DNA of 64,000 nucleotides from an uncultured Planctomycetales bacterium (GTDB taxonomy: Bacteria > Omnitrophota > Gorgyraeia > Zapsychrales > JAHFFX01), in the NCBI GenBank assembly GCA_964612665.1, contig CAZTCI010000003.1, positions 207,734 to 271,733 on the forward strand. The letters are read 5' to 3'. The notes below the pieces were generated by a model. That model worked only from the letters and a program-made list of their open reading frames with translations, was not told the DNA's origin and searched no databases. Shown one piece after another: positions 6,772-58,063 of this stretch; the first letter of the stretch is position 1; each line of letters starts with the position of its first letter. The position numbers were made by a program, and so were the translations under genes.

Positions 6772-6804
6772 AGATTCCCTTTCAGACTAAGTGTTTAAAA
6801 CTAT

Positions 6805-6845
6805 TTGAACGCGAATTATCGCGAATTACACACGAATATTCGCGT
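6805..6845. repeat. Hairpin element AACGCGAATTATCGCGAATTACACACGAATATTCGCGTT between the ABC exporter and pseB; related to the element at 39347-39390
   Basis: Read in the sequence: arms aacgcgaat/attcgcgtt; shares the cgcgRattacacac core with 39347. Confidence 0.5.
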
Positions 6846-9358: not shown

Positions 9359-9382
9359 GCCACTAAAATTTTTACCTGATCA

Positions 9383-9490
9383 GGACTTTCGCGTTTGGCT
9401 ATTCTCTCACGGAGAACCTGTTCTGCCTTTTCTAATACTGATGAAGGCAGAGCTGGTTCTCAGTTCGTTCATAGCCAAACGCGAAAGTCC
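9383..9490 (+). promoter_or_regulatory. 108-nt near-perfect leader hairpin in the 5' region of the GT-C gene. The outer stem is 20 bp, GGACTTTCGCGTTTGGCTAT / ATAGCCAAACGCGAAAGTCC. The inner stem is about 13 bp, GAGAACCTGTTCTGCCTT / AAGGCAGAGCTGGTTCTC
   Basis: Inverted repeats read directly. No U-tract follows, so this looks like an attenuator, operator or RNA element rather than a simple terminator. Confidence 0.5.
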
Positions 9491-9501
9491 TACGGATATT
9501 T

Positions 9502-16260: not shown

Positions 16261-16337
16261 AAAAAAACTCAAGGGTGTTAAGTGTCAAGTGTTAGGTGTT
16301 ACATAAATTGTAACACCTAACACTTGACACCTGACAC
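16261..16337 (-). terminator. Intrinsic terminator on the minus strand. The arms GTGTTAAGTGTCAAGTGTTAGGTGTTACA / TGTAACACCTAACACTTGACACCTGACAC form a 29-bp stem (two mismatches: one U-G wobble, one A-C), followed on the minus strand by TTTTTTT (16261-16267)
   Basis: Read directly. Lies between the stop of 16346-17749 and the RBS of the next gene. Confidence 0.7.
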
Positions 16338-16345
16338 ACTTGTCG

Positions 16346-20649: not shown

Positions 20650-20664
20650 AAGAGTTTAGTTGAA

Positions 20665-20795
20665 TGACCAATAACCAAGATACAATTTCCAAACAATACT
20701 CAATTTTCAATTCCAAATAACCAAACACATAGTTTTAGCGTTTGATTATTGTGTATTGGAATTTGTTTGGTCATTGTCACTTGTTTATTGGTTAT
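20665..20795. repeat. AT-rich imperfect palindrome of about 130 bp (arms about 50 bp) in the GT2-aminotransferase intergenic region
   Basis: Left arm GACCAATAACCAAGATACAATTTCCAAACAA.. is approximately the reverse complement of the right arm ..TTGTTTGGTCATTGTCACTTGTTTATTGGTTATT. Confidence 0.5.
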
Positions 20796-20803
20796 TTAAA
20801 AAA

Positions 20804-22959: not shown

Positions 22960-22992
22960 ATCAATTTTTTCATCGAGAGGGGCTTTTGGTAT

Positions 22993-23123
22993 GGGCTGTC
23001 AGCGAACTCCGATCCAGCGTCCGCCTACCTTCTTTCCAGAAAAGGCGTAGACTGGATCGCGTGCCCGCCCCGGCTTCGCCGGATACGGCGGGCCGGGGAG
23101 CGGATAGCCTGCTGCCAAAGCCC
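22993..23123. repeat. GC-rich structured intergenic element of about 130 nt (over 60% GC in a genome with low-40s GC). It contains the hairpins CCGATCCAGCGTCCGCC/GGCGTAGACTGGATCG and CCGGCTTCGCCGG
   Basis: Read directly. Shares short motifs with the element at 26966-27066. Confidence 0.4.
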
Positions 23124-24243: not shown

Positions 24244-25244
24244 AGCTTAATAACTTTGCCTTTCTTCTTTAATGATTCAGCCGCGGCTGAAAGCAAATGC
24301 ATGACGCGCAGACCAGAATCTCCGTCGTTAATCGGTTGTTGGTTGGTCTTAAGACACTTTACAAAATGTTCCAATTCCAATTTAAGCGCCTCGGTTAAAT
24401 CCACATGAGGCGACCACATATCACCAGAACGGTAATCGACCATCAAACGATAACGGCCTTCCTTATCGTTAAGGGTGACCCCGCGGTCGTAGACTTTAAT
24501 TTTTTCATCGGTCTGCAAATCGTCCCACACCAGCATCTTTTTTTCGGCGCCAATCAAAACTGTCCTAATCTTAACCGGCGAAAGCCAATTCACGCTAATG
24601 TGCGCCATAAATTTCTCTTGGAAATAAACCGTAATGTACGCCATATTTTCCTGCCCGCGGCCCATATGGTCAATGCCTTGGGCGCTTACGGCGACGGGTT
24701 TATAAGGAATAACATAATCAATAATCGAAAAATCATGCGGCACCAGATCCCAAATGACATTAGCGTCATGACGAAAAAGCCCGAGGCTGCTGCGCAAAGA
24801 GTCATAATAATATAACTTCCCTAAATCTTTTTGCTCGATCAATTCTTTAATTTTACGCACCGCACCGGTAAAAAGAAAAACATGGTCCACCATAATGGTC
24901 AATTTTTTCTTTTTGGCCAGGGCTGTTAACTCCTCGGCTTCTTTTAAATTGGAAGTGAAAGGTTTTTCAATAAAGACATGCTTGCCGTTCATTAACACGC
25001 TTTTGGCAAGTTTATAGTGTGTAGAAACTGGAGTAATGATAGCAACGATATCGATCGCGGGAGATTTAATGATCTCATCCGGATCGGTTGTAAGATGGGA
25101 AATGTTGGATAGATTTTGGAATTTTTTAAGCGCCTGGGGATTTTGATCACACAAACTATGAACTTTAATCCCCTCAATGGATAAAAGATTCCGAACAACA
25201 TTAGGTCCCCAATATCCGTAGCCAATGACACCGAAATTAAGCAT
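24240..25244 (-). CDS. Gfo/Idh/MocA-family NAD-dependent oxidoreductase, WbpB-like UDP-sugar 3-dehydrogenase
   Basis: NFGVIGYGYWGPNVVRNL Rossmann motif and EKP motif (FIEKPF). Confidence 0.55.
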   Translation of the reverse strand: MLNFGVIGYGYWGPNVVRNLLSIEGIKVHSLCDQNPQALKKFQNLSNISHLTTDPDEIIKSPAIDIVAIITPVSTHYKLAKSVLMNGKHVFIEKPFTSNLKEAEELTALAKKKKLTIMVDHVFLFTGAVRKIKELIEQKDLGKLYYYDSLRSSLGLFRHDANVIWDLVPHDFSIIDYVIPYKPVAVSAQGIDHMGRGQENMAYITVYFQEKFMAHISVNWLSPVKIRTVLIGAEKKMLVWDDLQTDEKIKVYDRGVTLNDKEGRYRLMVDYRSGDMWSPHVDLTEALKLELEHFVKCLKTNQQPINDGDSGLRVMHLLSAAAESLKKKGKVIKL

Positions 25245-25438
25245 AGTAACTCCTTCGCGAATCTTGACTTTTGTACCATGATAAGGCGCGTTTGGAAAGA
25301 AAAAAGTAAATTGATGATGGCTTACAAAATACTTGTGAAAATTTCTGTAAACGGTGAGGAATGTAATAGAATACCGTCAATAATTTAAAACTTTTACCAG
25401 CACTTGTGCTAGTAAAGATTAAGGCCCATGAGCGGATC

Positions 25439-25464
25439 ACCGCGACAGGACCCGCTGCTTCGGC
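25439..25464 (+). repeat. 26-nt GC-rich element CCGCGACAGGACCCGCTGCTTCGGCG in the 5' UTR of GT-C paralog 2. It is the near-perfect inverse of 26965-26990
   Basis: The reverse complement of 26965-26990 is GCCGTGACAGGACCCGCTGCCTTCGGC. Confidence 0.55.
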
Positions 25465-25489
25465 GATTATTCAGATAAATTGTAGAAGC

Positions 25490-26935
25490 ATGAAAAATTC
25501 TATAACGCAAAACAAAGTCTCTCTCCTTTCTTATCTTCAAGAGCCGGTCATCGCTCTTGCCTTTCTCTTACCGCTTATCTATTGGATTTATCTGGCCTTC
25601 ACCACACAGATGAATATCCGTTTTGATGCGCAAGGGTTTGAAAAACTCGCAGGGTATATTTATCATCAAGGCTGGCCGGCTTTTTTTGAACAAAATCCCG
25701 ACCAAAGTCCTCTCTATCCTTTTCTTATTTCCATTTCCATGCGGATAGCTGACTTTTTTGCGCTGCCTTACCAAAGAATTCAAACCATCTTTCAAATTTT
25801 CCTGCTATTACTTTCCCAATTCTTGCTATTAAAAATCTTAACGCGGATTAACATTAAGAAATCTCTAATAGCTTTCGTCTTGCTTTATTTTGGATTTTCA
25901 CCGGCTATTGTCAACTCAGCCTTTAGTCTTTTCTGCGAAATCCTAACTTACCCTTTTGTCCTCGGGATTATTTTGTGTTCGGTTGAAATCTGGAATTTAA
26001 TTCTAAGCAAAGAACGTTTTGGCCGGATAGTGAGTTACAGCATTTTACTGGCGGCAATTTTTTTTCTTATCACCTGCACGCGCGCGATTTATGAATACAT
26101 TCTTGTCGTCTATATTTTCTTTTTTGCTTTGATATCCATTAAATTTATTAGAGAAACGGAGCGCTTCCTGCGAGCGATAGCTTTTTTAAGTATTGTGTTC
26201 ATATGCTTTCAAACGCTTTTAACGCCTTATAAACTGATGAATTTGAAATATAACGGCCACAAAGTCACCATCATTGTGGGCGCTTCATCTGTTTATGCCG
26301 ACGCTGTTGGAAGAACGCGGCCGATTACGGGTCAACAACTCCTGATCGCATTAAGTTTTATCCCAGGAGACGGCGTGTGTTGGAAATTTTTTGGGAAAGA
26401 AAAATGCGATTTTTGGTACAACGACATGTACCAAATTGGGCTTAAAAAAGTTGAAGCGCTCAGGAAGGCTGGAATTCCTAATGAACAACATGACAAAATC
26501 CTTTACCGCGAAGCCAAGGAACATATTTTCCAAAAACCGTTCCAGTACGCGCTTTTAAATGCGATTGAAGGGTTCAAAATGTTCTTTTGGGAATCAACCC
26601 GGATTGGGTTTGTGGCTTATCCGGTGTGGTTGGAAAAAATTTTTAGGAATGTGCTTTTTAAAGATGTTTTGCGTCTAGCCGTCGCTATTGTAACGATCTT
26701 TTGCTTTCTTGATAATTTGATTTATGTTTTTCGCAGGCGGGATTTTTATGAAGTGCGATCTAACACGATATATCTTTTCACCATCTTGGTCGTCGTTACG
26801 GCAAACATCGTCTTACATTCCTTTTTCATAACCGTAACCCGTTATGCGCTTCCTTTTGCGCCTTTGTATTTGATCTTGATTGCCTGCACGCTGCAAAGAA
26901 AAACCGCATCCAGCAATCATCCGTCTCATTATTAG
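25490..26935 (+). CDS. GT-C fold membrane glycosyltransferase (ArnT/PMT_2-like), paralog of 9502-10932
   Basis: IYWIYLAFT, DAQGF...QSPLYPFL and FWESTRIGFV are conserved with the paralog (..FWESTKIGFV..). The start is set at the internal Met (MKNSITQ); the ORF-track N-terminus would translate the GC-rich repeat. Confidence 0.6.
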   Translation: MKNSITQNKVSLLSYLQEPVIALAFLLPLIYWIYLAFTTQMNIRFDAQGFEKLAGYIYHQGWPAFFEQNPDQSPLYPFLISISMRIADFFALPYQRIQTIFQIFLLLLSQFLLLKILTRINIKKSLIAFVLLYFGFSPAIVNSAFSLFCEILTYPFVLGIILCSVEIWNLILSKERFGRIVSYSILLAAIFFLITCTRAIYEYILVVYIFFFALISIKFIRETERFLRAIAFLSIVFICFQTLLTPYKLMNLKYNGHKVTIIVGASSVYADAVGRTRPITGQQLLIALSFIPGDGVCWKFFGKEKCDFWYNDMYQIGLKKVEALRKAGIPNEQHDKILYREAKEHIFQKPFQYALLNAIEGFKMFFWESTRIGFVAYPVWLEKIFRNVLFKDVLRLAVAIVTIFCFLDNLIYVFRRRDFYEVRSNTIYLFTILVVVTANIVLHSFFITVTRYALPFAPLYLILIACTLQRKTASSNHPSHY

Positions 26936-26965
26936 TCTTTCCTTAATAGAATGTATCTCATAAAT

Positions 26966-27066
26966 AGCCGAAGGCAGCGGGTCCTGTCACGGCAAACCGC
27001 TTGTGGGCCCCGTCCGCCCGGCGTGGATCCTCCCACAATCGGTTCGCCGTGCCACCCGCTGCCCGC
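26966..27066. repeat. GC-rich extended hairpin of about 100 nt. It has three nested stems: GGCAGCGGGT/ACCCGCTGCC, CACGGCAAACCG/CGGTTCGCCGTG and TTGTGGG/CCCACAA. It lies between two convergent genes
   Basis: Read directly. Probably serves as a bidirectional terminator/3' element for the GT-C and acyltransferase genes. Confidence 0.55.
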
Positions 27067-27098
27067 TCAATACCCTTTATGGGATGACTTCTAATATC

Positions 27099-28163
27099 TT
27101 ATTCCCTTCCGCCCAGCAAAAACCGGTTTAAGATCTCATTTCTTTTAATTAACGATGTTGATAGGAAAAGACACAAACCAATAAAAAAGGCGGCGGCTAA
27201 AGGCGCATACACGGCGAGAAAAACTGGTCCATTGAAATTAAAACTGACCCCCAGGCGGTCAATAACTCTAGGGTAAATTGCTTCAAGAATGAAAATTTGA
27301 ATCAAATAAATATCTAACGAATATCTTCCAATAAAATCTAAAAGCGGCGCTGCCTTCTTCTTTGAAATATATTTTCCAACAATGAAAGTAATCAATATCC
27401 CTAAAAATCCCATGAGGTATCGATAAAAAAACCTTAACACTTCACCCCAATACTGTGCTGAGTCAAAACTCATTTTATTTATGTAAATGTAATCTTGATT
27501 CGTCCAATACTGGATTAACACAGCGAATAGGACGACGGCAGCGGCAAACATGATTCCGCTGATCCGTGGATTGTTAAGGTTTAACTTATACCGGTTACTG
27601 AAATATCCCGCCGCATAGAAAGGATAAAACCATTTAATATTAAAAAGAGAAAAAGAACAGTTATAAGGAATTAATAGAATCAAACCATATAGGATGGCAA
27701 AGATGATGATTCCAAACCGCGTTTCCAATTGAATACAACACAATAAAACGCAGCTCAAAACAAACAGCGTAAATAAAAACCAGACGAGCGGATGGATCAA
27801 TAATTGATCGATCAAATTCAAAGGCCAATGGATTATCTCGGCGACATTTTTCTTTTCTACAATACTTAAAAAACAATTAGCCATAAAAACCAGGAAGCCC
27901 CAGGATATAAAAGGAACAAGCAGGCTTTGACATCTCATTTTGAAAACTTCTAAAACACTTCGTCGACTAAAACTGACAGCGATTAAATATCCGCTGATAA
28001 AAACAAATAACGGCATGTGAAACGTATAAATCACCCGGAAAATCGGATTGAGAAAGAAATCCTCTCCCCTAGGCACCATCGTGTGTTGAATAACATGCCC
28101 GTAAACGACCAGAATGATGGCGATTCCCCGGACAGTGCTTATTGTAAAATTTTTATTTTCCAT
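27099..28163 (-). CDS. Acyltransferase family 3 (OatA/OafA-like membrane O-acyltransferase)
   Basis: About 10 transmembrane helices with VRGIAIILVVYGHV and FHMPLFVFISGYL motifs. The start is set at MENKNFT. Confidence 0.6.
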   Translation of the reverse strand: MENKNFTISTVRGIAIILVVYGHVIQHTMVPRGEDFFLNPIFRVIYTFHMPLFVFISGYLIAVSFSRRSVLEVFKMRCQSLLVPFISWGFLVFMANCFLSIVEKKNVAEIIHWPLNLIDQLLIHPLVWFLFTLFVLSCVLLCCIQLETRFGIIIFAILYGLILLIPYNCSFSLFNIKWFYPFYAAGYFSNRYKLNLNNPRISGIMFAAAVVLFAVLIQYWTNQDYIYINKMSFDSAQYWGEVLRFFYRYLMGFLGILITFIVGKYISKKKAAPLLDFIGRYSLDIYLIQIFILEAIYPRVIDRLGVSFNFNGPVFLAVYAPLAAAFFIGLCLFLSTSLIKRNEILNRFLLGGRE

Positions 28164-28231
28164 ACCGTTACACTTCAATCCCGCGCACAACATTTGCATC
28201 GTTCAATCGTCATGTTATAATACGCGCCACT

Positions 28232-29104
28232 ATGAAAAAAACAACCGAATTATTTAAAGCCAAAGAGCGGACTTACAGTTTTGAACTCTTTCCACCAAAA
28301 ACGCCAGAGGGTTATGAAAAACTTTTGCATACAATAACCCAGCTATGCGCGTTGAAACCGGATTTTATTTCTGTGACTTACGGCGCCGGCGGCGGAAGCC
28401 GGGATAAAACAATCGATTTGGTCGATCATATCCAAAGGAAGCACAATGTCGTCGGTGTCGCACACTTGACTTGTGTCTGCCATACGCGGGAAGAAATTAA
28501 AACCATTTTAGAAAATATAAAAAAACGCGGGATCCAAAATGTCCTGGCGCTGCGTGGCGATCCGCCCAAAGATAATCCCAATTGGCAGCCGGGAACGGAA
28601 AATTTTAAATACAGTTCGGAATTATGCAGTTTTATCCGTCAGCATTTTGATCATTATTTCGGTATTGGTGTTGCCGGATTTCCTGAAGGACATTTGCTGT
28701 GTCGTGACCGCGAACGTGACGCTCAGTATCTTAAATCAAAAATTGACGCAGGCGCCGACTACGTTATCACTCAGCTTTTTTTTGATAACCAAGATTATTT
28801 TGATTATGTCAAACGGTTAAGAAAACTCGGCGTGACGGCGAGAGTTTTGCCAGGAATTATTCCGATTACAGACTACAAAGCCTTACAAAATTTTTGCCAG
28901 CTGTGCGGCGCAGGTATTCCTCAAAAAGTGCACTCTCTTTTCTCTCCGATTCAAAATGATAAAGAAAAAATGCTTCGGGCAGGAATTGATTTTGCTATTG
29001 AACAATGTCGCGAGCTTTTGGCTGGTGGGGCGCCAGGATTGCATTTTTATACTTTAAATAAAATTAATCCGGTTGATATGATTCTTTCCGCTGTCCGATT
29101 GTAA
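28232..29104 (+). CDS. metF: 5,10-methylenetetrahydrofolate reductase
   Basis: 290 aa with SFELFPPKT and SVTYGAGGGSR motifs. Confidence 0.75.
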   Translation: MKKTTELFKAKERTYSFELFPPKTPEGYEKLLHTITQLCALKPDFISVTYGAGGGSRDKTIDLVDHIQRKHNVVGVAHLTCVCHTREEIKTILENIKKRGIQNVLALRGDPPKDNPNWQPGTENFKYSSELCSFIRQHFDHYFGIGVAGFPEGHLLCRDRERDAQYLKSKIDAGADYVITQLFFDNQDYFDYVKRLRKLGVTARVLPGIIPITDYKALQNFCQLCGAGIPQKVHSLFSPIQNDKEKMLRAGIDFAIEQCRELLAGGAPGLHFYTLNKINPVDMILSAVRL

Positions 29105-29642: not shown

Positions 29643-30254
29643 TTACGGAGATTGCTTTTTCTTCTTTAACTCTTCAACAAAATCTTCCAACGCTTTGCGC
29701 GTCATGGTGTGGCGGTTTTCAAACTTGTCCATCCAATTGTTATATTCCTCGACGGTAATCCGGTGATCCTCAGAAATCAGGTCAAAATATTCCAAAAGCG
29801 CAACCGCTTTGAATTTGGCGTCGAAATCCTGCCACCAGCTGCCTTTCATTTCCTCCTGCAGACTTAACAGACTGGAGTTGAGATTCATGAGCTCTTCTTT
29901 CGAAATCGTTTCGTTCGACATTTGTTTAATCGCCGCCATCTTCGTTTGCACCCCTTCAATGGATTCTGACATTAAATAATTCATCGCCCACGCCGTAAAA
30001 ATGAAAAACGCCAAGCCCGTGACTATCGCTATGGATGAAAACCACTTAAAAAGCTTTTTGCCTGACCCAAAAATCCCATAAACAATACTGCCCAGCGGCC
30101 AGGTAAAAAACATAACCAGTATCCAAATAACTTTGGCGAGCTTGCTTAACGGCGAGATCGCGCATTGGATAATGGTCCAGAGGGGATAAACAATCACAAA
30201 AAAAATGACGAGCAGAAGAAAAACAATAATCACTAAAAAGCCTAATGTCATCAT
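29643..30254 (-). CDS. Membrane protein with a PLDc_N (phospholipase-D-nuclease N-terminal) domain and a cytoplasmic C-terminal domain of unknown function
   Basis: Three N-terminal transmembrane helices with the WILVMFFTWPLGSIVYGIFG signature. Confidence 0.45.
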   Translation of the reverse strand: MMTLGFLVIIVFLLLVIFFVIVYPLWTIIQCAISPLSKLAKVIWILVMFFTWPLGSIVYGIFGSGKKLFKWFSSIAIVTGLAFFIFTAWAMNYLMSESIEGVQTKMAAIKQMSNETISKEELMNLNSSLLSLQEEMKGSWWQDFDAKFKAVALLEYFDLISEDHRITVEEYNNWMDKFENRHTMTRKALEDFVEELKKKKQSP

Positions 30255-30481
30255 AATTGCTCGATAATTTTAAGATATTCTGCCGTACTAATTCTTAAAG
30301 TTCGAAGATTACTTTTAATTTCAAATATCGGCAGGTCTTTTTTGGTGCGGACTATAACGGGGCGAAGCAGATCACCTCGATTCCATACGCGATGATCTCC
30401 TTCTTGGCGGACTAGATGACAACCGATGGTATTCAAAAACTGCTCAAATTTCTTATAATGAATTGGACGAATGGCAGGCAT
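30251..30481 (-). CDS. hicA: Type II toxin, HicA family (YcfA-like mRNA interferase)
   Basis: 76 aa; GCHLVRQEGDHRVW (GSH/GDH catalytic motif). Confidence 0.55.
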   Translation of the reverse strand: MPAIRPIHYKKFEQFLNTIGCHLVRQEGDHRVWNRGDLLRPVIVRTKKDLPIFEIKSNLRTLRISTAEYLKIIEQL

Positions 30482-30775
30482 TTATGATGCGATAGGAATT
30501 TCTATGTCTCTACTCTCTTGACCGATGATACGGGGAGGAGTCCAAGTCTTTTTTACTTTTTCCCAGCCATACTCTTGTAGAACTTCTTGCCACGTTCCTT
30601 TTTTACTCACTTCCTCGACGAATAATTTCAAACTGTGAGCAAAAGATTTTTCAGCATCTTCAAAAGAATCTCCGTGGGCCGCCAGATCAAACGCAGGAGA
30701 ATAACAAATAAAAACATCTCCTTCTTTAAGGTAAAGGACTGGAATATTGGCTTTAATTGTAGATGGTTTCAACAT
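30482..30775 (-). CDS. hicB: HicB-family antitoxin (UPF0150/RNase-H-like fold)
   Basis: 97 aa; VLYLKEGDVFICYSPAFDLAAHGDSFEDAEKSF matches UPF0150. Abuts hicA. Confidence 0.5.
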   Translation of the reverse strand: MLKPSTIKANIPVLYLKEGDVFICYSPAFDLAAHGDSFEDAEKSFAHSLKLFVEEVSKKGTWQEVLQEYGWEKVKKTWTPPRIIGQESRDIEIPIAS

Positions 30776-34670: not shown

Positions 34671-34792
34671 GGTTAAGGTAACGATACCCGTTTCGTTAAG
34701 AGGTTAAGGTTAGGTGGCAAAAACCATTCAGCTTTTGACCTTACCATGACCTGTTACCGAAACAGGCTTCTTAACCTTAACCGTTACCAGGA
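34671..34792. repeat. AT-rich long imperfect palindrome (GGTTAAGGTAACG...CGTTACC motifs) between pilQ and the large pilin gene
   Basis: Left 34671-34712 is approximately the reverse complement of 34750-34792. Confidence 0.45.
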
Positions 34793-39305: not shown

Positions 39306-39346
39306 GATGTCGATCCTGGATGAAAAAGATAAGATTCGAATTATTT

Positions 39347-39420
39347 AACGCGGATTTTCGCGGATTACACACAGTTTCTCGCAGATTTCCCGACGGATAC
39401 TGCGAAAATCTGTGTGCAAT
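39347..39420 (-). terminator. Long imperfect hairpin CGCGGATTACACACAGTTTCTCGCAG / CTGCGAAAATCTGTGTGCAATCCGCG downstream of pilA; probable pilA terminator
   Basis: Read directly: arms of about 26 bp with a 17-nt loop, then U-rich sequence on the minus strand. Confidence 0.45.
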
Positions 39421-39461
39421 CCGCGTTGATCTGCGTCAAATATTTCGCATCTTTTTAAACG

Positions 39462-43067: not shown

Positions 43068-43108
43068 CGGGGCCTGGCCTCGAATCAAAGTACTCGGGCC
43101 AGGCCCCG
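43068..43108. repeat. GC-rich perfect 12-bp hairpin CGGGGCCTGGCC/GGCCAGGCCCCG with a 17-nt loop
   Basis: Read directly. Confidence 0.5.
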
Positions 43109-43119
43109 TCGCCTTTCGC

Positions 43120-43166
43120 CAAAAAAATAGCCAGTCATCCGAGAGAGGATGACTGGCTATTTTTTA
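43120..43166. terminator. Bidirectional intrinsic terminator: A7 - ATAGCCAGTCATCC - gagaga - GGATGACTGGCTAT - T6
   Basis: 14-bp perfect stem flanked by A and T tracts, downstream of gap. Confidence 0.8.
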
Positions 43167-44871: not shown

Positions 44872-47800
44872 ATGAAAAAGATTATATTCGTTTTGAGTTT
44901 ATTGATGATTCCATTCACTACTGCCCAGGCCGCCACGGTCGTGGTTGGCGAAAAGAATATTCTTTCAGCCGATGATAACGGTAATGGCAATTTACTTGTG
45001 ACACAGAAAGCCACCTTAAGTCAAACAGCCACTCTTCAAAGTTTGTCCTTTTATATCACGTCAGCAGCAGGAAAAATGCGTCTGGGGATCTATGATGCGA
45101 CTGGTCCGGGTGGTGGGCCTGGAAATAAAAAAGCAGAAACGAATGAAATCACACCTGTGGTGGGATGGAACACGGCGAATGTGACTTCGGCAGTGTCCTT
45201 GCCGTCGGGGACTTACTGGCTGGCCTATTTTCCCAGTGACAACCGCCTCGCCTTCAAAAAGAAATTGACAGGAAGTGCGAAATATTATTCATTGACCTAC
45301 GGTTCTCTACCCGCGAAATTTTCGACAACACCAAATTCAGAAGTCGTCCACTGGTCATTGTACGCCACCTTTTCAACGACTTCCTCGGCGGATAAAACCC
45401 CGCCGAACGTATCATTAACCGCTCCCGCCAATGGTGCAAGTGTGTCTGGATCATCCGTGACCGTCTCCGCGAACGCCTCGGATAACGTTGGGGTGGCCGG
45501 TGTTCAGTTTAAACTTGACGGAAATAACCTCGGGGCCGAAGATACATCTTCTCCCTACAGCATCACCATGGATTCAACGAAGGTTTCCAATGGCGTTCAC
45601 AGCTTAACGGCTGTGGCCCGTGACAGCGCTGAAAATACAAAAACGTCTTCAGCCGTTTCTATAACAGTCAACAATTCCACGCCTATCTCTGTGGTCATCA
45701 GTGGTCTGACCCTCAATAATAATGACACCTTAGGCGGCGCTATCATGACGCTTACTAACGGCGATTCTATTAATCTTTCAAATTTACCTACTCAAAATAT
45801 CAATATTGAAGCCAAAGTGACTTCAACCGGCACTGGTGTTTCTCATGTCGATTTCAAACTTGATTCTTTTACGCATACAGAAGTCTCCGCGCCTTACGCC
45901 TTGTGCGGCGACTGGGCGGCTTGTCCCGCGGGACTTTTTTCTGTTGGCTCTCATACTTTGACTGTCACGCCTTTTGATTCCGCCAACGCCGCCGGACAAA
46001 CAACCACAATCACTTTTCAAGTTATTAAAACAACGCCGCCTCCGTCAGACACAACACCGCCGACTGTTTCAATGACCGCTCCCGCTAATAATTCAAGCGT
46101 TTCCGGATCAAACGTAACTGTTTCCGCTAACGCTTCCGATGATGTTGGTGTCGTTGGAGTTCAATTTAAATTAGATGGAAACACTTTAAGTGCTGAAGAT
46201 ACTTCATCTCCCTACTTTATTATATGGGATGCAACTAAAACTTCTAACGGCGCCCACACTTTAACCGCGACCGCCCGTGATGCTGCCGGGAATTCTAAAA
46301 CATCTTCTGTCGTTAATGTCACTGTTAACAATCCAGACACAACCGCGCCTTCGGCCCCGACGGGTTTGATGGCCAAAGTTATTTCAACATCCGAAATCGA
46401 TTTGTCCTGGAACGCTTCAACGGATAACGTCGGCGTTACCGGTTACAACATTTACCGCAACAATCAATTAATCAAAACTCAAAACACGTTAGCGTTAGCC
46501 GATACCGGATTGACCGCCTCAACCACTTATGCCTACGGCGTCAGCGCCATTGACGCGGCCGGCAATGAATCCGCAAAAACGACGGTCAGTGCCAAGACTA
46601 ATGATAACCAAGCGCCCGTTGTCAGTCCGATTTCCCGCGACACCGCTGATGTTGATCCGGCAACGACCGGCTTACAATTTTACGAAGGGACAACTGTAAC
46701 CTATTCCAGCTCAGCCACCGATCCCGACAACGATCCATTGACTTGGAGCTGGATTTACACGCGTAACGGCGGGGCTGAAGTTGTTTTTAAAACCGGCACT
46801 GGCGCCGTTCAAAATGCCGTTTTCACTTATCCGACGGGAAGCGCTGGCACAACTTATCATTGGATTTTACGCGTCAGCGACGGCATTCATACCGTTGAAA
46901 GTACGCTTGATGTTTCGATCATCACACCTCCAGACACAACCGCGCCAACAGTTTCAATGACCACGCCGGCGAATAATGCAAGTGTCTCTGGAAGTTCGAT
47001 CACTGTTTCGGCGAACGCATCAGACAACGCCGGTGTCATCGGTGTTCAATTCAAAATGGATGGGAATACTTATGGCGCTGAAGATATGGCTTCTCCTTAT
47101 TCCATCGTCATGGACTCAACAAAAGTTTCCAACGGCGCTCACACGTTAACCGCAACAGCCCGCGATGCCGTCGGGAATTCCACGACGTCTTCTGTTGTCA
47201 ACATTACCGTCAGCAATGATTTAACCGCCCCGACTGTTTCTATTTCCGCGCCGGCCAACAACGCCAGCGTTTCCGGAAGTTCGGTCACGGTTTCAGCCAA
47301 TGCAGCCGATAACGTTGGCGTCGTTGGCGTTCAATTCAAACTCGACGGAAATAATCTGGGCGCTGAAGATACTGCCAGCCCTTATTCTGTTATTTTAGAT
47401 TCAACTAAAATTTCAAACGCGTCTCACACTTTAACTGCTGTCGCGCGTGATGCGGCGGGGAATTCGACTACATCGTCAACCATTACAATCACGGTTAACA
47501 ATCAACCACCAGACACAACTCCGCCGACCGTTTCAATGACGGCTCCGGCGAATAACGCAAGCGTCTCTGGCGCTTCTGTTACTGTATCTGCGAATACTTC
47601 TGACAACGTCGGCGTCGTCGGCGTTCAATTTATTTTGGATAGTTCTAATTTAGGTGCTGAAGACACAACGTCTCCTTACAGTGTTGTTTTAGATTCAACC
47701 AAAATCAGCAACGGCGCGCACACGCTTAAAGCTGTCGCGCGCGATGCGGCCGGAAATCTTGGAACATCTTCCATCGTTAATATCATGGTCAACAATCAAG

Positions 47801-50800
47801 TGCCAGACACAACACCACCAACGGTTTCAATGACCGCTCCGGTGAATAACGCGACCGTGTCGGGAAGTTCTGTCATCGTTTCCGCCAACGCTTCCGATAC
47901 CGTTGGTGTTGTCGGCGTGCAGTTTAAACTCGATGGAAATAATTTAGGAAGTGAAGACACTTCCTCTCCTTATTCTATTAATTTTGATTCAACAACCGCG
48001 GCGAATGGTTCTCATACCTTAACCGCAGTCGCCCGTGATGCCGCCGGCAACACAACAACTTCGTCGGCCGTTTCGATTACTGTTTCTAATACCACAACAC
48101 CTCCGCCGACCAGCCCGGCATATCCGCTGAAAGCCAGTGCGAACAAACGTTATCTGGTTGACCAAAACAACCAGCCGGTCTTTCTCGTTGGTGATTCACC
48201 GCACGCGATGTTTGTTAATTTAAGTACGAGCCAGGCCGCGACCTACATGACCAATCGTGCTTCTTACGGCGTCAATGCTTTATGGGTCGAAATTCTTTGC
48301 GGCAGTTACATTCCTAATTGCCGTTCTGACATGAGCACCTTTGACGGGATTGTTCCGTTCACAACGCCCGGCGACATTTCAACGCCGAACCCGGCTTATT
48401 TCAGCCGGATCGACGCCATGGTCGCAACCGCGGCGCAAAACGGCATTATTCTTTTTATTGATACCTGGGAAACCGGCGGTGAGATGGGTATTCTGCAGGC
48501 CAACGGCAACACCAAGGCCTTCAACTACGGTGTCTTCCTCGGGAACCGTTATAAAAATAATCCGAATGTTATTTGGATTACCGGTAACGACTTTACAACA
48601 TCCGGTAATTCTACTGACGACACGCTCATCAAAAATATCATGGCCGGTATCGCCTCAGTTGATCCCAATCATCTGCAAACGGTTCAACTGGGATATCCGG
48701 TCAGCGGTTCGCATGAAGACAGTTTACTGCTTCCCTATATTACGCTCGGGGAAGTTTACAGTTATCCGCCGCAGTACGCGAAGATTTATACCGAATACAA
48801 CGCCAGCCCGACGCTGCCTGTTTATATGGAAGAAGCCAATTACGAAGGCGAAAACAATACCGGCAACGACCCGAGCACGCCGAAAGTTTTGCGCCAGCAG
48901 GAATACTGGACGATGCTCGCCGGCGGATTGGCCGGACAGATGTACGGCAGTGCAACGACCGCGTATTTTAATTCAGGATGGCAAAATAATTTGGATACAA
49001 CCGGCGTTCGTCAGTTAAAGATCATGAAAAATTTCTTCATGGCTTACGGCTGGCAGAATTTGGTGCCGGACCAAAATCATACGTTTGTCACAGCGGGATA
49101 CGGAACGTTCGCAAACAGTGGTGCCGTTCACACCAATGACTACGCGACCGCCGCGGTTTCACCCGACGGAACGCTTGGCATGGTCTACGTTCCATCGTCT
49201 CGAACAATGACTGTGGCTATGACAAAGATGGCTTCCACCACCGTAACCGCCCGCTGGTTTGATCCGTCAAACGGTAATTACACGCCGGTCTCTGGATCGC
49301 CGTTTGCCAATACCGGAACAAAACAATTTACACCGCCGGGCAATAACAGCGATGGTGACAGCGATTGGGTCCTAGTTCTTCAATCGTCAACAACGCCGGA
49401 TAATCAAGCGCCATCGGTTCCAGGGAATTTAACCGCTAACGCCGTATCATCAAACCAGATCAATCTTTCTTGGAAATCCTCGACGGATAATGTCGGTGTT
49501 ACCAATTACGTTATTTTTAGAAACGGAATTCAGATCGCAACGCCAACTTCGACAACTTATCAAGACACAGGATTAACTGCGCAAACGACTTATATCTATA
49601 CCGTCGCTGCGCAGGATCTTATGGGAAATACATCTGCCCAATCCGCTTCCGCCTCCGCCACCACACCGACGGCGCCGCCTTTATCGGCTGGACTTTTGGC
49701 TGCTTATGCTTTTGATGAAACCTCCGGATCAACGGCTGCGGATTCCTCTGGAAATAATTTACCTGGAACACTCAACGGTTCTGCGACGTGGACCGCGGGA
49801 AAATATTCCGGAGCAGTCAACTTAAACGGTTCAACGCAGTACGTGGATTTAGGAAATCCTGCATCGCTTCAATTAACCGGCAGCATGACCGTGACGGCCT
49901 GGATCAATTCGGCGGCGTTTCCGGCTGATGATGCAGCGGTTGTTTCCAAACGCAATACAACCGGTGGGTATCAATTGGACACGACAATCGACGTCGGGCC
50001 GCGCGCGATTGGATTTAAACTTACGGATTCCAGCGGCGTTAATATGATGCGCTACGGCAAAACCACGATGCAGACGAACACCTGGTATCACGTCGCCGGC
50101 GTTTACAATGCCGCGACCCAAACCATGGATGTTTATTTAAACGGAATCCTCGATAACGGCACGCTGTCCGGAACGATTTCATCGACGCAGCAAGATTTTG
50201 CGACGAATGTCATGATCGGTAAACGGTCGGGTAATTCTGGATATGAATTCAATGGTCGGATCGACAACGTACGGATCTACAACCGCGCATTGACTGCGGC
50301 GGAAATTCAAACAGATATGAATACCGCCATCATCGCCGGGACACTTCCGCCGCCCCCGCCCTCATCTGATGCCACACCACCTAGTGTTCCTTCGGGATTA
50401 ACGGCGACAGCGATGTCTGCAAGTCAAGTCAATTTATCCTGGAGTACCTCGACGGACAATCTCGGTGTGACGGGGTATAAAGTTTATCGCTGTCAGGGCG
50501 CGGGTTGTTCAACATTTGCTCAAGTCGGAACATCAGCGACGGCCAGTTATCAAGACACCGGATTATCAGCATCGACCAATTATTCTTACAAAGTTTCGGC
50601 CTATGACGCCGCTGGAAATTTATCAGGGTATTCGAATCAAGCCACTGGGACAACACCCGGCAGCGGCACTGATGGTGTTTGCAATCGTGGCGATATTATC
50701 ATGTGTGAAAATTGGGAATGGAGTACCAATCCATCTTACGCAGCTTCAGCTTCAGATTGGAACGCTCATGGATGGACGCTAGGTGAAACACTAAGCACAT

Positions 50801-53800
50801 ACGCCAATAGCAACGTATACTGTAACGGTATCGGATACGCTGGAAATTGTGCGGCCCAACTTTTTCTCGACGTTGATGGAGCAGGCACACAGTATCCAGA
50901 TTATCCTATCCCCGATCAACAGGGCACAATTTATCTTCGGTTCTATGTGAAGTATTCGCCCGGATATAAATTTAATTGGAACACATCCGTGCAACCTCCA
51001 GAAGGAGAACAACAAAAGGTTGCTTACCTGCGCGCACTCTCCGGTGGGAATATGGCATGGCGTATTGAAATTGATAATTTTGGACGTAATGGCGGAGCGT
51101 CGGGAGAATTTGGCGTTGATCTAAACGTCCACAATACATTTCTAAAGTACAACCAAGGACATGATGTCAATGTCGTCGGAGGCCAGTGGTATGCCATTGA
51201 ATTGATGGCGCAATTAAATACACCCGGGCAAACCAACGGGGCCATCAAGATGTGGATTGATGGCGTCCTTGTCATCTCAAACTCCGGGCTTGATATGCGT
51301 CAGGGCGCCGGACCAGCTTCAACACCGATCAATGATGTGTGGTTTACCTCTTACTATGGAGGACCAACAGATCCTCATCCAGCCCAATATATTTACTATG
51401 ACAATTTTGTTGTCAGTTCAAACTATATTGGTCCGATAGGAACGCCACCGCCTTCAGATACGACAGCGCCGACGATTTCTTTAACGGCACCTGCGAATAA
51501 TGCAACAGTCTCCGGATCGTCCGTCAGTGTATCGGCCAATGCCTCCGACAACGTCGGTGTGGCCGGAGTTCAATTCAAATTGGACGGAAATAATCTGGGC
51601 AGTGAAGATATATCATCGCCGTATTCGGTCGTATGGAATTCGACGACGGCGACGAACGGTTCGCACACACTGACGGCCGTTGCGCGCGATGCCGCCGGAA
51701 ATACGACGACCTCGACAAGTGCCATGGTGACTGTGAACAATGTACCGGCCGATACAACCGCGCCAACGGTATCGATGACCGCGCCGATCAATGGCGTAAC
51801 GGTGTCCGGTTCTTCCGTCCCTGTTTCTGCGAATGCGTCGGACAACGTCAGTGTGGCCGGTGTTCAATTTGTTTTGGACGGAAATAATTTAGGAAATGAA
51901 GATACGTCTTCTCCTTATTCCGTTGTCTGGAATTCCACGACGGCAACGAACGGCAGCCATACGTTAACGGCGATCGCGCGCGACGCGGCCGGCAATATCG
52001 CGACGGCCAGCTCAGTCACCGTGACGGTCAACAACACCGTTTCCGACACAACGCCGCCAAGCGTTCCAACAGGATTAAACGCGGCAGCTCTTTCTTCTTC
52101 TCAAATCAATTTATCCTGGAGTTCTTCGACGGACAATGTTGGCGTGACCGGCTACAAGATTTTCCGTTGCCAGGGTTCTGGATGTTCCACCTTTACTCAA
52201 ATCGGAACATCAACAACGGCAGCTTATCAAGACAACGGATTGTCGGCGTCGACCAATTATTCCTATAAAGTCTCGGCGTATGATACCGCTGGAAATAATT
52301 CCGCCCAATCGGCAAGCGTAAACGCAACAACGTCATCCGCGCCGACGGGAAGTCTTTCTTCTCTCTATCCCGGCGACGTGGGCATCGAAAATGATCCGGC
52401 GGTTTTATTCACCGAAAAATTCAACGGCGGAACGCTCTCCCAGATTGCTTCGCGCTACGATGACGTATCGAATCTCTCCAGCATGACGCTTTCAAATGAT
52501 GTCCCTGCTGGCAGCGGAAGTTCAACGTCACTTTTGATCACCGCCACCGGCGGTCAATCTTCAGGCGGTCATCTTTACAAAAACTTAGCGAATATCAACA
52601 AAACTGAAAACGACACGATGTACTTACGTTATTACGTGAAATATAAATCCGGATTTACCTTCCACCACAACTCCGTTTGGTTTGGCGGCTACAATCCTCC
52701 TTTAAATTATCCTTACCCCAGAGCAGGTCTTAAACCGGCGGGCAACGATCTTTTTACTGTCGCGACCGAACCCGTCGAAGCATCAGGACGTTTGGATAAC
52801 TACATTTATTGGATGGGCATGCATTCAGATCCAAACGGCGATTATTGGGGAAATGATTTACTGCAAGATGCCAATCTCAAAGAAACACCGGATCAATGGA
52901 TCTGCGTTGAGACCATGGTGAAACTGAATAACCCCGTCACCGCCGCCAATGGAGAGCTGGCGTTTTGGATCAACGGCCAGAAGAAAAATGATTTAGGCTT
53001 AGGCTTCCCTAATGGCCATTGGGTCTGGGATAGTTTTTATCCGACCGCGACGGACTCAACGACGTTTGGCGGGTTTCAATGGAGAAGCGATGCGAATTTG
53101 AATTTAAATTATATATGGATTCAAAATTACGCGGATACCACGCCCGTCGGCTCAACAAGTCAAATGGAAGTGGCCAATCTGGTCGCGGCCAAACAATACA
53201 TTGGATGCCTTACATCCACCCCTCCGCCCTCTGATACAACACCACCGAGTGTTCCATCAGGATTAAACGCCACGGCTATTTCTTCTTCTCAAATCAATCT
53301 AAGCTGGGGCGCATCAACGGATAATGTCGGTGTGACGGGTTATAAAGTTTATCGTTGTCAGGGGTCTAGTTGTTCAACATTCACGCAAGTGGGAACATCA
53401 GCAACCACAAATTATCAGGATAGCGGTTTGAACGCATCCACAAATTACTCGTATAAAATTTCCGCCTATGATGCGGCGGGAAATAATTCGACACAATCAA
53501 ATAGCACCAATGCAACAACGCAAAGCAGTACGACTGCCGTCAATCCCGACTGCTCCTTGCCCGGCGTACTTTACTGCCAGGACTGGACAAACGGATGGAC
53601 CGGCGTGGATGGTCCTGCGGATGGAAGCTGTAATTATATTGACACCTCTCAGGCCCACAGCGCCACTAAATCGAATGTAATGAACTGGGGTCCTAATCAA
53701 AATTCCTGTTCATGGTATTATTTGCCGACATTTACACCGCAGAAAGAAGTTTACGTGCGATGGTATCAATATATGAGTCCAGGATGGAACTGCAATGATC

Positions 53801-56850: not shown

Positions 56851-56854
56851 TCTT

Positions 56855-56879
56855 CCCAACCTCCGGGGTTGGGGAGGTT
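56855..56879 (+). terminator. G/C hairpin after the giant gene with two alternative pairings (CCCAACC/GGTTGGG or AACCTCC/GGAGGTT). The second pairing includes the GGAGG Shine-Dalgarno of the TPR gene
   Basis: Read directly. Related in sequence to the hairpin at 58037-58063. Confidence 0.4.
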
Positions 56880-58036: not shown

Positions 58037-58063
58037 CCTCCCCAACCCCGGGGGTTGGGGAGG
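58037..58063. terminator. Perfect palindrome CCTCCCCAACCCC g GGGGTTGGGGAGG (13-bp stem) exactly between the convergent stops of the TPR gene and fmt
   Basis: Read directly. No U-tract on either side. Confidence 0.5.

What the first reader, a model, noticed from the sequence alone, without database searches (positions are those of the whole stretch)
25400..27070. GT-C paralog enclosed by inverted copies of a GC-rich 26-nt element and followed by a 100-nt GC-rich multi-stem hairpin; the element family also marks the first paralog
Directly visible: the 5' UTR of the second ArnT/PMT-like gene carries CCGCGACAGGACCCGCTGCTTCGGCG (25439-25464). The reverse complement of 26965-26990, immediately after the stop, reads GCCGTGACAGGACCCGCTGCCTTCGGC, which matches 24 of 26 positions with one indel. 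The downstream copy is itself the 5' arm of an extended GC-rich hairpin (26966-27066, over 60% GC in a genome with low-40s GC) whose 3' arm is a third, more diverged copy.

The first paralog (9502) has both arms upstream as a 108-nt near-perfect leader hairpin (9383-9490). Its arms (CAGGACTTTCGCGTTTGGCTATT) are recognisably related to the 25439 copy (GACAGGACCCGCTGCTTCGGCGATT). Both paralogs also share a TGTGCTAG(A/T)AA promoter box.

Possible interpretations, all inference:
- Long-range 5'UTR-3'UTR pairing on the paralog-2 mRNA, competing with the terminator stem.
- A protein-binding cruciform or operator, since the first copy sits next to a divergent wHTH regulator.
- A remnant of a mobile or site-specific recombination cassette that duplicated the GT-C gene.
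None of these is described for GT-C genes.
Basis: seen in the sequence. Interest (0 to 1): 0.6.

Follow-up and report, generated by a model that had tools for sequence, protein, structure and literature searches.

The report
Hairpin repeat copies bracketing a glycosyltransferase gene
A membrane glycosyltransferase gene in an uncultured Omnitrophota bacterium carries a real, lineage-specific 63-base inverted repeat at its two ends; the downstream copy is one arm of a long GC-rich hairpin that most likely works as an RNA 3'-end or terminator structure, and nothing shows it to be mobile or conserved.

Summary
The core observation is real. The 5' leader of the second paralog (25423-25485) is the reverse complement of its 3' flank (26947-27009): 63 nt, 79% identity, score 59 against 15.6±2.1 in shuffles. 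The 3' copy is one arm of a 100-150-nt hairpin with 72% GC (dG -66 to -76 kcal/mol, z about -6 to -7).

Two side claims fail. The first paralog's leader hairpin is real, but its similarity to this element is no better than chance. The shared "box" is an ordinary extended -10 promoter motif.

None of 80 homologous loci from other Omnitrophota has flanking repeats or this sequence. There is no Rfam match, and no match in plasmids, phages or viral contigs. The window has no recombinase, and independent assemblies show no inverted orientation.

Long intergenic hairpins of unrelated sequence are common in this window and in related contigs. Relatives have the glycosyltransferase gene directly followed by MTHFR. 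Here an opposite-strand acyltransferase gene and the hairpin sit between them.

Best reading: a lineage-specific palindromic 3'-end, terminator or insulator hairpin between convergent genes, with one arm duplicated locally into the 5' leader. Folding predicts strong 5'-3' UTR pairing, as in icaR mRNA, but this is untested.

The parts
25405..25415 (+). TGTGCTAGTAA, a putative extended -10 promoter box of paralog 2. It lies inside a small palindrome, 25393-25416.
   Evidence: Sequence; palindrome reported. About 14 related loci carry TGaTAAGAT (TGnTAnnAT) about 31 nt before the ATG. Here the box lies 83 nt before the ATG. The promoter function is an inference.
25423..25487 (+). Copy A of the repeat unit U: a GC-rich arm (GGCCC...TTCGGC) plus an AT-rich tail. 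It fills the 5' leader of paralog 2.
   Evidence: On its own it folds only weakly (dG -22.6, z -1.2).
25490..26935 (+). Paralog 2 coding sequence: a 481-aa multi-pass membrane protein with a GT-C fold.
   Evidence: It is an exact match to an NCBI protein on a 401-kb contig (P0001).
26945..27009 (-). Copy B of unit U. It is the inverted partner of A and forms the 5' arm of the hairpin on the plus strand (the 3' arm on the minus strand).
   Evidence: Only 1 unique change, against 12 in A and 12 in C.
27010..27031 (.). Apex of the hairpin: GC-rich, with its own small stem.
   Evidence: Folds. Bases 26999-27044 are missing from the short-read contigs of three runs.
27032..27092 (+). Copy C of unit U. 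It is more diverged, with a 3-nt deletion, and forms the other arm of the hairpin.
26966..27068 (.). GC-rich core of the long hairpin between the convergent genes.
   Evidence: GC 0.72; dG -60.1 (plus) and -65.5 (minus). z -6 to -7. Rfam gives only spurious miRNA-precursor hits far below their thresholds.
27099..28199 (-). Acyl_transf_3 gene, convergent with paralog 2. Its stop codon lies 7 nt from the hairpin's foot.
   Evidence: Pfam PF01757, E = 3e-31. Together with the hairpin it lies between paralog 2 and MTHFR, which are adjacent in relatives.
28232..29104 (+). MTHFR gene. In relatives it is the conserved downstream neighbour of the GT-C-like gene. It keeps its own GTTATAAT box 10 nt before the ATG.
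9382..9491 (+). Leader hairpin of paralog 1. It is a separate element with no demonstrable sequence relation to U.

Best explanation
The downstream element is a lineage-specific long palindromic hairpin. It is one of many long intergenic hairpins in this genome and in other Omnitrophota.

It sits between the convergent paralog-2 gene and an acyltransferase gene. That acyltransferase gene, together with the hairpin, has come to lie inside the otherwise conserved GT-C-gene -> MTHFR junction.

The hairpin most likely acts in the RNA as a 3'-end structure. It would stop or pause read-through from either side and protect the 3' ends from exonucleases, so it insulates the two convergent transcripts. 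This is how REP elements and bidirectional terminators work.

The copy in the 5' leader is a local duplication of one arm plus its tail. It lies between the promoter and the short ancestral leader. Nothing shows that it arose for a function.

Shown:
- the repeat and the hairpin;
- their absence from homologous loci;
- the changed gene order;
- the intergenic position of all strong hairpins.

Inferred:
- action at the RNA level;
- the terminator or stabiliser role;
- origin by local duplication.
For: - The hairpin lies exactly between two convergent stop codons (26935 and 27099).
- Outside the repeat-rich giant ORF and one stretch inside the primosomal helicase (PriA-like) gene (about 60511), every very strong 110-nt fold in the 64-kb window is intergenic. 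These are 9382-9491, 16270-16342, 22985-23120, 26966-27066, 39331-39453, 43068-43165, and 56848/58034.
- The hairpin at 16270 has a 34-bp stem followed by a run of eight U on the transcribed strand. The genome therefore does use very long stems as terminators.
- The minus strand folds 5.5 kcal/mol better, with 6 G-U pairs against 3. This fits use in the acyltransferase transcript.
- Long hairpins of unrelated sequence also flank GT-C homologues in other Omnitrophota contigs: L010, L043, L073.
- In at least 17 of 80 related loci the GT-C-like gene is followed by MTHFR, with gene ends overlapping or a spacer of at most about 23 nt. In most of those with a spacer it holds a TATAAT box. Here the block of hairpin plus acyltransferase fills that junction exactly.
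- The only three copies of the unit in 64 kb lie within 1.7 kb of each other. This points to local duplication rather than genome-wide spread.
- A second gene in the window, encoding a TPR protein, is also bracketed by two copies of one hairpin.
- REP elements are reported to act as dual 3'UTR terminators and stabilisers, including between convergent genes (bioRxiv 10.64898/2026.03.23.713779).
Against: - No U-tract directly follows the GC-rich stem on either strand. The nearest is UAUUUAU or CCCUUUAU, 7-12 nt away. The terminator scan reports nothing at the hairpin.
- Stems of 40-55 bp are far longer than termination requires.
- There are no transcript data.
- The explanation gives no reason why the duplicated arm landed precisely in the leader of the same gene.
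- It also does not explain why copy B has hardly changed while A and C each carry 12 unique changes.
- The strand asymmetry across the window's hairpins is only a weak trend.
Confidence: 0.45

Rival explanations
1. A functional 5'UTR-3'UTR switch. On the paralog-2 mRNA the leader (A) pairs with the first arm of the 3' hairpin (the complement of B). This closes the mRNA ends into a long duplex of about 20-60 bp. The duplex would compete with formation of the full 3' hairpin. It could also mask the start region or create an RNase III substrate, as in icaR mRNA of Staphylococcus aureus.
For: - The A:rcB duplex has dG -82.8 kcal/mol, against -63.5 for rcB:C on the plus strand.
- In the full model transcript the pairing has probability 0.95 and is worth 32 kcal/mol. 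The outer hairpin stem drops to about 1e-5.
- A starts about where a transcript from the extended -10 box would start, and it ends 3 nt before the ATG.
- B, the arm that would pair with both partners, has 1 unique change, against 12 in A and 12 in C (P about 5e-4 under equal rates).
- There is a precedent for 5'-3' UTR pairing in bacteria: icaR (PMC3868564).
Against: - Nothing shows that both copies lie on one transcript.
- None of 80 homologous loci has any flanking complementarity, so covariation cannot be tested.
- Of the five transitions between the A and B arms, two give G-U and three give A-C on the plus strand. There is no bias towards pairing.
- The low count of changes in B could instead come from compensatory change within the hairpin, which parsimony would wrongly assign to A.
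- Any inverted duplication would give the same folding prediction, whether functional or not.
Confidence: 0.2
2. A MITE- or REP-like mobile palindromic element. The B-apex-C palindrome would be a full non-autonomous element and A a solo half-copy. Both would have been inserted independently by a transposase encoded elsewhere in the genome.
For: - The element is an imperfect palindrome of 130-150 nt in intergenic DNA. Its GC content (59-72%) differs from the genome's (about 43%).
- Compared with relatives, it looks like inserted DNA both in the leader and after the gene.
- Other intergenic motifs and hairpins in the window also have partial second copies: 39349/6802 and 56848/58034.
Against: - There is no other copy in the 64-kb window.
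- The 20-nt core gives only four hits, each extending at most 21-27 nt, all in unrelated bacteria (three of them GC-rich lineages), among 185,579 species genomes. The source genome is not in that set.
- There is no match in plasmids or phages, and viral contigs give only matches of at most 26 nt around the searched 15-mer, one per contig.
- There is no target-site duplication.
- The window has no transposase, RAYT or recombinase domain.
- Three copies packed around one gene is unlikely for random insertion.
Confidence: 0.15
3. An invertible or excisable gene segment. Site-specific or homologous recombination between A and B would flip paralog 2. Recombination between the direct copies A and C would delete it. 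In the flipped state the gene would lie behind the acyltransferase gene, with a complete leader hairpin like that of paralog 1.
For: - Inverted repeats with a 15-bp identical core bracket the whole gene, including its leader.
- Paralog 2 is the only plus-strand gene in a long run of minus-strand genes.
- Short-read contigs of several runs end inside the hairpin at identical bases.
Against: - The repeats are only 79% identical, whereas active invertible segments keep near-identical repeats.
- The window has no recombinase.
- Contigs from three runs pass straight through A, in the same orientation as the window.
- The same kind of contig break occurs at the paralog-1 hairpin (9410/9462) and at 23057/23083. 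The breaks therefore track strong hairpins in general, not this gene.
- The present orientation (GFO gene divergent upstream, MTHFR co-directional downstream) is the conserved one in relatives.
Confidence: 0.05
4. A DNA-level operator or cruciform bound by a regulator, for example the MarR-like wHTH protein encoded next to paralog 1, which would co-regulate the two paralogs.
For: - The divergent pairing of the wHTH gene with a GT-C-like gene is conserved in several relatives: L013, L014, L015, L027, L032, L068.
- Both paralogs carry palindromic DNA between promoter and ATG.
Against: - The similarity between the paralog-1 and paralog-2 elements is at chance level.
- Relatives with the wHTH|GT-C pair have no strong hairpins there.
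- Arms of 48-65 nt are far longer than MarR-type operators.
- The main paralog-2 palindrome lies downstream of the gene, not at its promoter.
Confidence: 0.05

Closest known systems
REP/BIME-type extragenic palindromes and bidirectional terminator hairpins between convergent genes (E. coli and other bacteria)
   Same: It is an imperfect palindrome in intergenic DNA at the 3' ends of convergent genes. It is richer in GC than its surroundings. Its presence varies between lineages rather than being conserved. The expected effect on read-through and 3'-end stability is the same (role as reported in bioRxiv 10.64898/2026.03.23.713779).
   Different: The stem is about 40-55 bp, against roughly 10-15 bp. 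No multi-copy family is detectable in 64 kb. No U-tract adjoins the stem. No RAYT-like gene was seen. The sequence is unrelated to any known family.
icaR mRNA 5'UTR-3'UTR pairing in Staphylococcus aureus (PMC3868564)
   Same: [quoted passage not shown] The predicted duplex is long enough to be an RNase III substrate and ends next to the start codon.
   Different: In icaR a short UCCCCUG motif pairs with the Shine-Dalgarno sequence, and this was shown experimentally. Here the complementarity spans 63 nt, exists in one genome only, rests on folding predictions alone, and competes with a local hairpin.
Integron gene cassettes (ORF plus attC palindrome)
   Same: The layout is similar: the acyltransferase ORF has essentially no upstream region of its own. 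A palindrome of about 130-150 nt follows it, and the block lies exactly between a stop codon and the next gene's promoter.
   Different: The RYYYAAC and GTTRRRY core sites are absent. There is no integrase and no cassette array in the window.
Invertible DNA segments (invertons, shufflons)
   Same: Inverted repeats bracket a complete functional unit.
   Different: The repeats are 21% diverged. No invertase gene is nearby. Independent assemblies show a single orientation.

Membership tests
Intrinsic (Rho-independent) terminator | GC-rich stem-loop at the 3' end of a transcription unit | tested here: met
   The hairpin at 26966-27068 lies between convergent stop codons. dG is -60 to -66 kcal/mol and GC is 0.72.
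Intrinsic (Rho-independent) terminator | Run of U directly after the stem | tested here: not met
   The terminator scan of 24900-27600 lists no site at the hairpin. The sequence shows only UAUUUAU or CCCUUUAU, 7-12 nt beyond the GC-rich stem.
REP/BIME-like extragenic palindromes | Imperfect palindrome confined to intergenic DNA | tested here: met
REP/BIME-like extragenic palindromes | Many related copies dispersed over the genome | tested here: inconclusive
   The window holds only the three local arms. The rest of the source genome could not be reached: the pattern scan of the species-representative genomes did not include it.
MITE | Terminal inverted repeats flanked by a target-site duplication, with multiple copies | tested here: not met
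   No direct repeat flanks A or the palindrome. No further copies were found.
Integron cassette / attC | R'' (RYYYAAC) and R' (GTTRRRY) core sites at the ends of the palindrome; IntI integrase nearby | tested here: not met
   Neither motif occurs on either strand of 26921-27120. No integrase domain was found in any ORF of 110 aa or more.
Invertible segment (inverton) | Both orientations present in the population; recombinase gene | tested here: not met
   Logan contigs from three runs cross A in the window's orientation only. No recombinase was found. Raw reads were not available, so a minor variant cannot be excluded.
icaR-type 5'-3' UTR interaction | Complementary 5' and 3' UTR segments predicted to pair | tested here: met
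   Duplex dG is -82.8 kcal/mol. Pairing probability is 0.95 in the model transcript.
icaR-type 5'-3' UTR interaction | Both segments on one transcript; pairing alters translation or decay | not testable with these tools
   This needs RACE, RNA-seq or reporter assays.
Any Rfam RNA family | Score at or above the family's gathering threshold | tested here: not met
   There are no hits in the window at gathering thresholds. At E <= 10 only miRNA-precursor models match, at 13-30 bits against thresholds of 70-93.
GT-C fold glycosyltransferases (the enclosed gene) | Multi-pass membrane fold like STT3, PMT or ArnT, with a conserved acidic residue in the first loop | tested here: met
   The AF2 model has pLDDT 89.4. 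Nearly all Foldseek PDB hits down to E about 1 are GT-C enzymes (best E 5e-4, the only one at E <= 0.001; TM 0.3-0.46), so the match is weak in score but consistent in kind. D46 is invariant in 24 homologues. There is no Pfam or NCBIfam hit, so the subfamily is unassigned.

The most novel reading that the evidence does not exclude
The three copies would form an alternative-pairing switch spread over a whole gene. The first arm of the 3' hairpin (the complement of B) could pair either with the 5' leader made 1.5 kb earlier or with the second arm (C). The state of the leader (free, or occupied by ribosomes or a factor) would then decide whether the full 3' hairpin forms. That in turn would set how the mRNA ends, how long it lives and how well it is translated. 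The near-unchanged state of B (1 unique change, against 12 and 12) would reflect its double pairing duty.
Probability: 0.12. Interest if true: 0.65.

Novelty: new member of a known kind. Interest (0 to 1): 0.33.

Why it matters
As it stands, this is a well-documented single-genome example of how long palindromic hairpins are gained and locally duplicated around genes in Omnitrophota, a phylum with almost no experimental genetics.

It shows such elements landing at two kinds of site. One is between a promoter and a short ancestral leader. The other is at a rearranged gene junction.

If the predicted end-to-end pairing of the mRNA were real, it would be an unusually long bacterial 5'-3' UTR interaction and a clean system for testing how mRNA ends communicate.

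There is also a practical lesson. These hairpins break k-mer assemblies at reproducible bases, so they will be under-represented in short-read metagenome bins.

Tried and rejected
- Rfam at gathering thresholds over the whole window, and at E <= 10 on the element, gave nothing credible. ARAGORN found no tRNA or tmRNA.
- I scanned the species-representative genomes with the 20-nt core. There were four hits, all in unrelated bacteria (three of them GC-rich lineages) and none extending beyond 21-27 nt. The source genome is absent from that collection, so the genome-wide copy number remains unknown.
- BLASTN against plasmids and phages gave no match. The 15-mer in viral contigs gave 58 single matches, none extending beyond about 26 nt.
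- I tested whether flanking repeats or strong flank hairpins are a trait of the gene family. In 80 loci the repeat scores were 12-27, at the null level. Only one GC-rich locus had comparably strong folds.
- I tested whether the palindrome travels with the acyltransferase gene. Homologues in L020 and L066 have no strong 3' hairpin.
- An integron attC was rejected because the core sites are absent.
- An inverton or mobile cassette was rejected as the main reading. There is no recombinase, no target-site duplication, only one orientation in the assemblies, and the repeats are diverged.
- Homology between the paralog-1 hairpin and the paralog-2 unit was rejected on shuffle statistics.
- An exact look-up of the 481-aa protein in the contig index failed. 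The 509-aa GTG-start version and the neighbouring proteins did work.
- A literature search for the run accession found nothing.
Full report
WHAT IS THERE

The window comes from an uncultured Candidatus Omnitrophota genome. The homologues that carry a source name are all called Omnitrophota or Omnitrophica, and the paralog-2 protein is identical to an NCBI protein on a 401-kb contig.

Paralog 2 is the coding sequence 25490-26935 on the plus strand. An independent repeat search returns arms 25423-25458 and 26974-27009, 36 nt at 83% complementarity. A gapped alignment extends this to 63 nt at 79% identity, 25423-25485 against 26947-27009. The whole stretch between the putative promoter box and the ATG is therefore the reverse complement of the stretch between the stop codon and the hairpin apex.

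The alignment score is 59. Shuffled sequence gives 15.6±2.1, and none of 500 shuffles reaches 59. Up- and downstream flanks paired at random among homologous loci give 18.4±3.6.

The downstream copy (B) is one arm of a long hairpin whose other arm (C, 27032-27092) is a third, more diverged copy. For 26950-27085, dG is -72.4 kcal/mol on the minus strand and -66.8 on the plus strand, with z of -6.0 and -6.9. GC content is 0.72 over the core, in a genome of about 43% GC. All three copies share a GC-rich arm followed by an AT-rich tail.

WHAT IS NOT THERE

The paralog-1 leader hairpin (9382-9491; dG -72.2, z -9.6) is real. Its claimed relation to the paralog-2 unit does not survive a test. The best local alignment between the two leaders is the 8-mer TGTGCTAG, whose score equals the shuffle mean (222 of 500 shuffles). 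Only a 14/16 match at the hairpin foot next to the ATG is marginal (9 of 500).

The box TGTGCTAG(A/T)A is not enriched: 2 matches found, 3.7 expected with up to one mismatch. It fits the general extended -10 pattern TGnTAnnAT. About 14 related loci carry that pattern as TGaTAAGAT about 31 nt before their ATG.

The enclosed protein has no Pfam, NCBIfam or PDB-sequence match. A confident AlphaFold model (pLDDT 89.4) matches GT-C enzymes, weakly in score but consistently in kind: nearly all hits down to E about 1 are GT-C enzymes such as STT3, AglB, PglB, PMT and ArnT (best E 5e-4, the only one at E <= 0.001; TM 0.3-0.46). The paralogs are 37% identical.

COMPARISON WITH RELATIVES

I fetched 80 metagenome loci encoding homologues at 31-48% identity. 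None has complementary flanks (scores 12-27). None has a flank hairpin of comparable strength, except one GC-rich contig. BLASTN finds the unit nowhere in these loci.

Gene order is informative. In at least 17 loci the GT-C-like gene is followed by MTHFR on the same strand. The gene ends overlap or are separated by at most about 23 nt. In most of the loci with a spacer, it contains TATAAT 7-10 nt before the MTHFR ATG. Several other loci have the wHTH regulator divergently upstream, as paralog 1 does here. One locus (L067) has the GFO-family oxidoreductase divergently upstream, as paralog 2 does here.

Both paralogs therefore sit in old, conserved contexts, and the repeats are later additions. 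In the window the block made of the palindrome and a minus-strand Acyl_transf_3 gene (27099-28199) lies exactly between the paralog-2 stop and the preserved GTTATAAT of MTHFR.

The extended -10 box is 83 nt before the paralog-2 ATG and 152 nt before the paralog-1 ATG, against about 31 nt in relatives. The extra length is close to the length of arm A in one case and of the 110-nt hairpin in the other. Both look like insertions into a short ancestral leader. This last point is an inference.

THE GENOMIC HABIT

A scan of every 110-nt window shows that the strongest folds are intergenic. The exceptions are the repeat-rich giant ORF and one stretch inside the primosomal helicase (PriA-like) gene at about 60511. 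The sites are 9382-9491, 16270-16342, 20660-20799, 22985-23120, 26966-27066, 34671-34782, 39331-39453, 43068-43165, and 56848/58034.

The hairpin at 16270 has a 34-bp stem followed by eight U on the transcribed strand, so very long stems do serve as terminators here. The hairpin at 43125-43165 is a classic A-tract/stem/U-tract bidirectional terminator. Other Omnitrophota contigs carry long near-perfect hairpins of unrelated sequence at the same kinds of position: L010, L043, L073.

The TPR gene (about 56889-58036) is bracketed by two 87%-identical copies of a 31-nt GC-rich hairpin. An arm of the 39349 hairpin has a partial copy at 6802-6833. Local copying of hairpin modules therefore recurs in this genome.

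MOBILITY AND INVERSION

No ORF of 110 aa or more in the window has a recombinase, integrase or transposase domain. There is no target-site duplication and no attC core site. The unit is absent from plasmids and phages, and viral contigs give only matches of at most about 26 nt around the searched 15-mer, one per contig.

Short-read contigs from four runs (SRR12313477-80) are 100% identical to the window. Three of them cross arm A in the window's orientation, so there is no sign of inversion. These contigs do stop reproducibly at hairpins: 26998/27045 here, 9410/9462 at the paralog-1 hairpin, and 23057/23083 at another GC-rich structure. Because this happens at several unrelated hairpins, I read it as a hairpin effect on sequencing or assembly, or as apex heterogeneity. 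I do not read it as evidence for flipping of this gene.

MECHANISM

The best-supported reading is a REP-like or terminator-like RNA 3'-end structure that insulates the convergent paralog-2 and acyltransferase transcripts, with one arm duplicated locally into the leader (confidence about 0.45). In its favour are the position, the genome-wide habit, and the better fold with more G-U pairs on the minus strand. Against it are the lack of an adjoining U-tract and the excessive stem length.

The most interesting rival is functional 5'-3' UTR pairing. The A:rcB duplex (dG -82.8 kcal/mol) beats the local rcB:C pairing (-63.5). In a model transcript 25422-27095 the leader pairs with 26967-26987 at probability 0.95 and gains 32 kcal/mol. 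In addition, B has one unique change while A and C have twelve each.

That evidence has limits. Any inverted duplication gives the same folding prediction. The polarity of the changes is confounded by possible compensation within the hairpin. The transitions between A and B show no preference for G-U. No relative is available for a covariation test. The known precedent is icaR mRNA (PMC3868564).

VERDICT

The repeat and the hairpin are real and far beyond chance. The proposed family link to paralog 1 and the duplication-cassette idea are not supported. The element is best filed as a new, lineage-specific member of the broad class of extragenic palindromic or terminator hairpins. A possible end-to-end mRNA pairing remains untested.

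Noticed in passing
window 26936-28231; loci L007, L009, L024, L036, L045, L050, L058, L068, L071, L073 and others: In many Omnitrophota the GT-C-like gene is immediately followed by MTHFR. In most loci where a spacer separates them, a TATAAT box lies 7-10 nt before the MTHFR ATG, which suggests a leaderless or very short-leader mRNA. One database protein (P0079, 779 aa) is a fusion of the two. In the window a minus-strand acyltransferase gene plus the palindrome is wedged exactly into this junction.
   Followed up: partly
window 22985-23120: A GC-rich (64-66%) multi-stem structure of about 135 nt lies between a methyltransferase gene and an epimerase gene on the minus strand. Its dG is -79 kcal/mol and z is -3.6. 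It has no credible Rfam match. Short-read contigs break inside it.
   Followed up: partly
window 9410/9462, 23057/23083, 26998/27045, 6809, 19253/19303: Logan contigs from SRR12313477-80 are 100% identical to the window. They end at the same bases in several runs, and the apexes of the long hairpins are missing. This suggests hairpin-induced sequencing drop-out, polymerase skipping or apex heterogeneity.
   Followed up: partly
window 56848-56878 and 58034-58064: Two 87%-identical copies of a 31-nt GC-rich palindromic hairpin (CCTCCCCAACC..GGTTGGGGAGG) bracket a TPR-repeat gene. This is a second case of one hairpin copied at both ends of a gene.
   Followed up: no
window 6802-6833 and 39349-39380: The motif AACGCGRATTWTCGCGRATTACACAC occurs twice (88% over 32 nt). 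Each copy lies in an intergenic spacer upstream of a minus-strand gene. The second copy is one arm of an 80-120-nt hairpin.
   Followed up: no
window 16270-16342; 43068-43108 and 43125-43165; 20660-20799; 34671-34782: There are further long intergenic hairpins. The hairpin at 16270 has a 34-bp stem followed by U8 on the minus strand, which makes it a terminator with an unusually long stem. The hairpin at 43125 is a textbook bidirectional terminator next to a second GC-rich hairpin.
   Followed up: partly
window 44872-56850: A giant ORF of 3992 aa is richer in GC than the rest of the window (about 49-51%). It contains many diverged internal repeats of about 300 nt (60-73% identity), some of them in tandem at about 294-nt spacing.
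   Followed up: no
window 25393-25416: A small palindrome, TTTACCAGCAC TTGT GCTAGTAAA, overlaps the putative -10 box of paralog 2. On the minus strand it scores as a terminator-like site.
   Followed up: no
window about 30251-30775 (L085 3207-3731): A small gene pair on the minus strand includes a weak HicA-toxin-like product of 76 aa and an adjacent 97-aa ORF. It may be a toxin-antitoxin pair.
   Followed up: no
L010 2925-2975; L043 4475-4545; L073 2943-3117: Other Omnitrophota contigs carry long, near-perfect AT-rich hairpins (23-60 bp stems, z -8 to -10) directly before or after the homologous genes. Their sequences are unrelated. Long intergenic hairpins may be a trait of the whole phylum.
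   Followed up: partly
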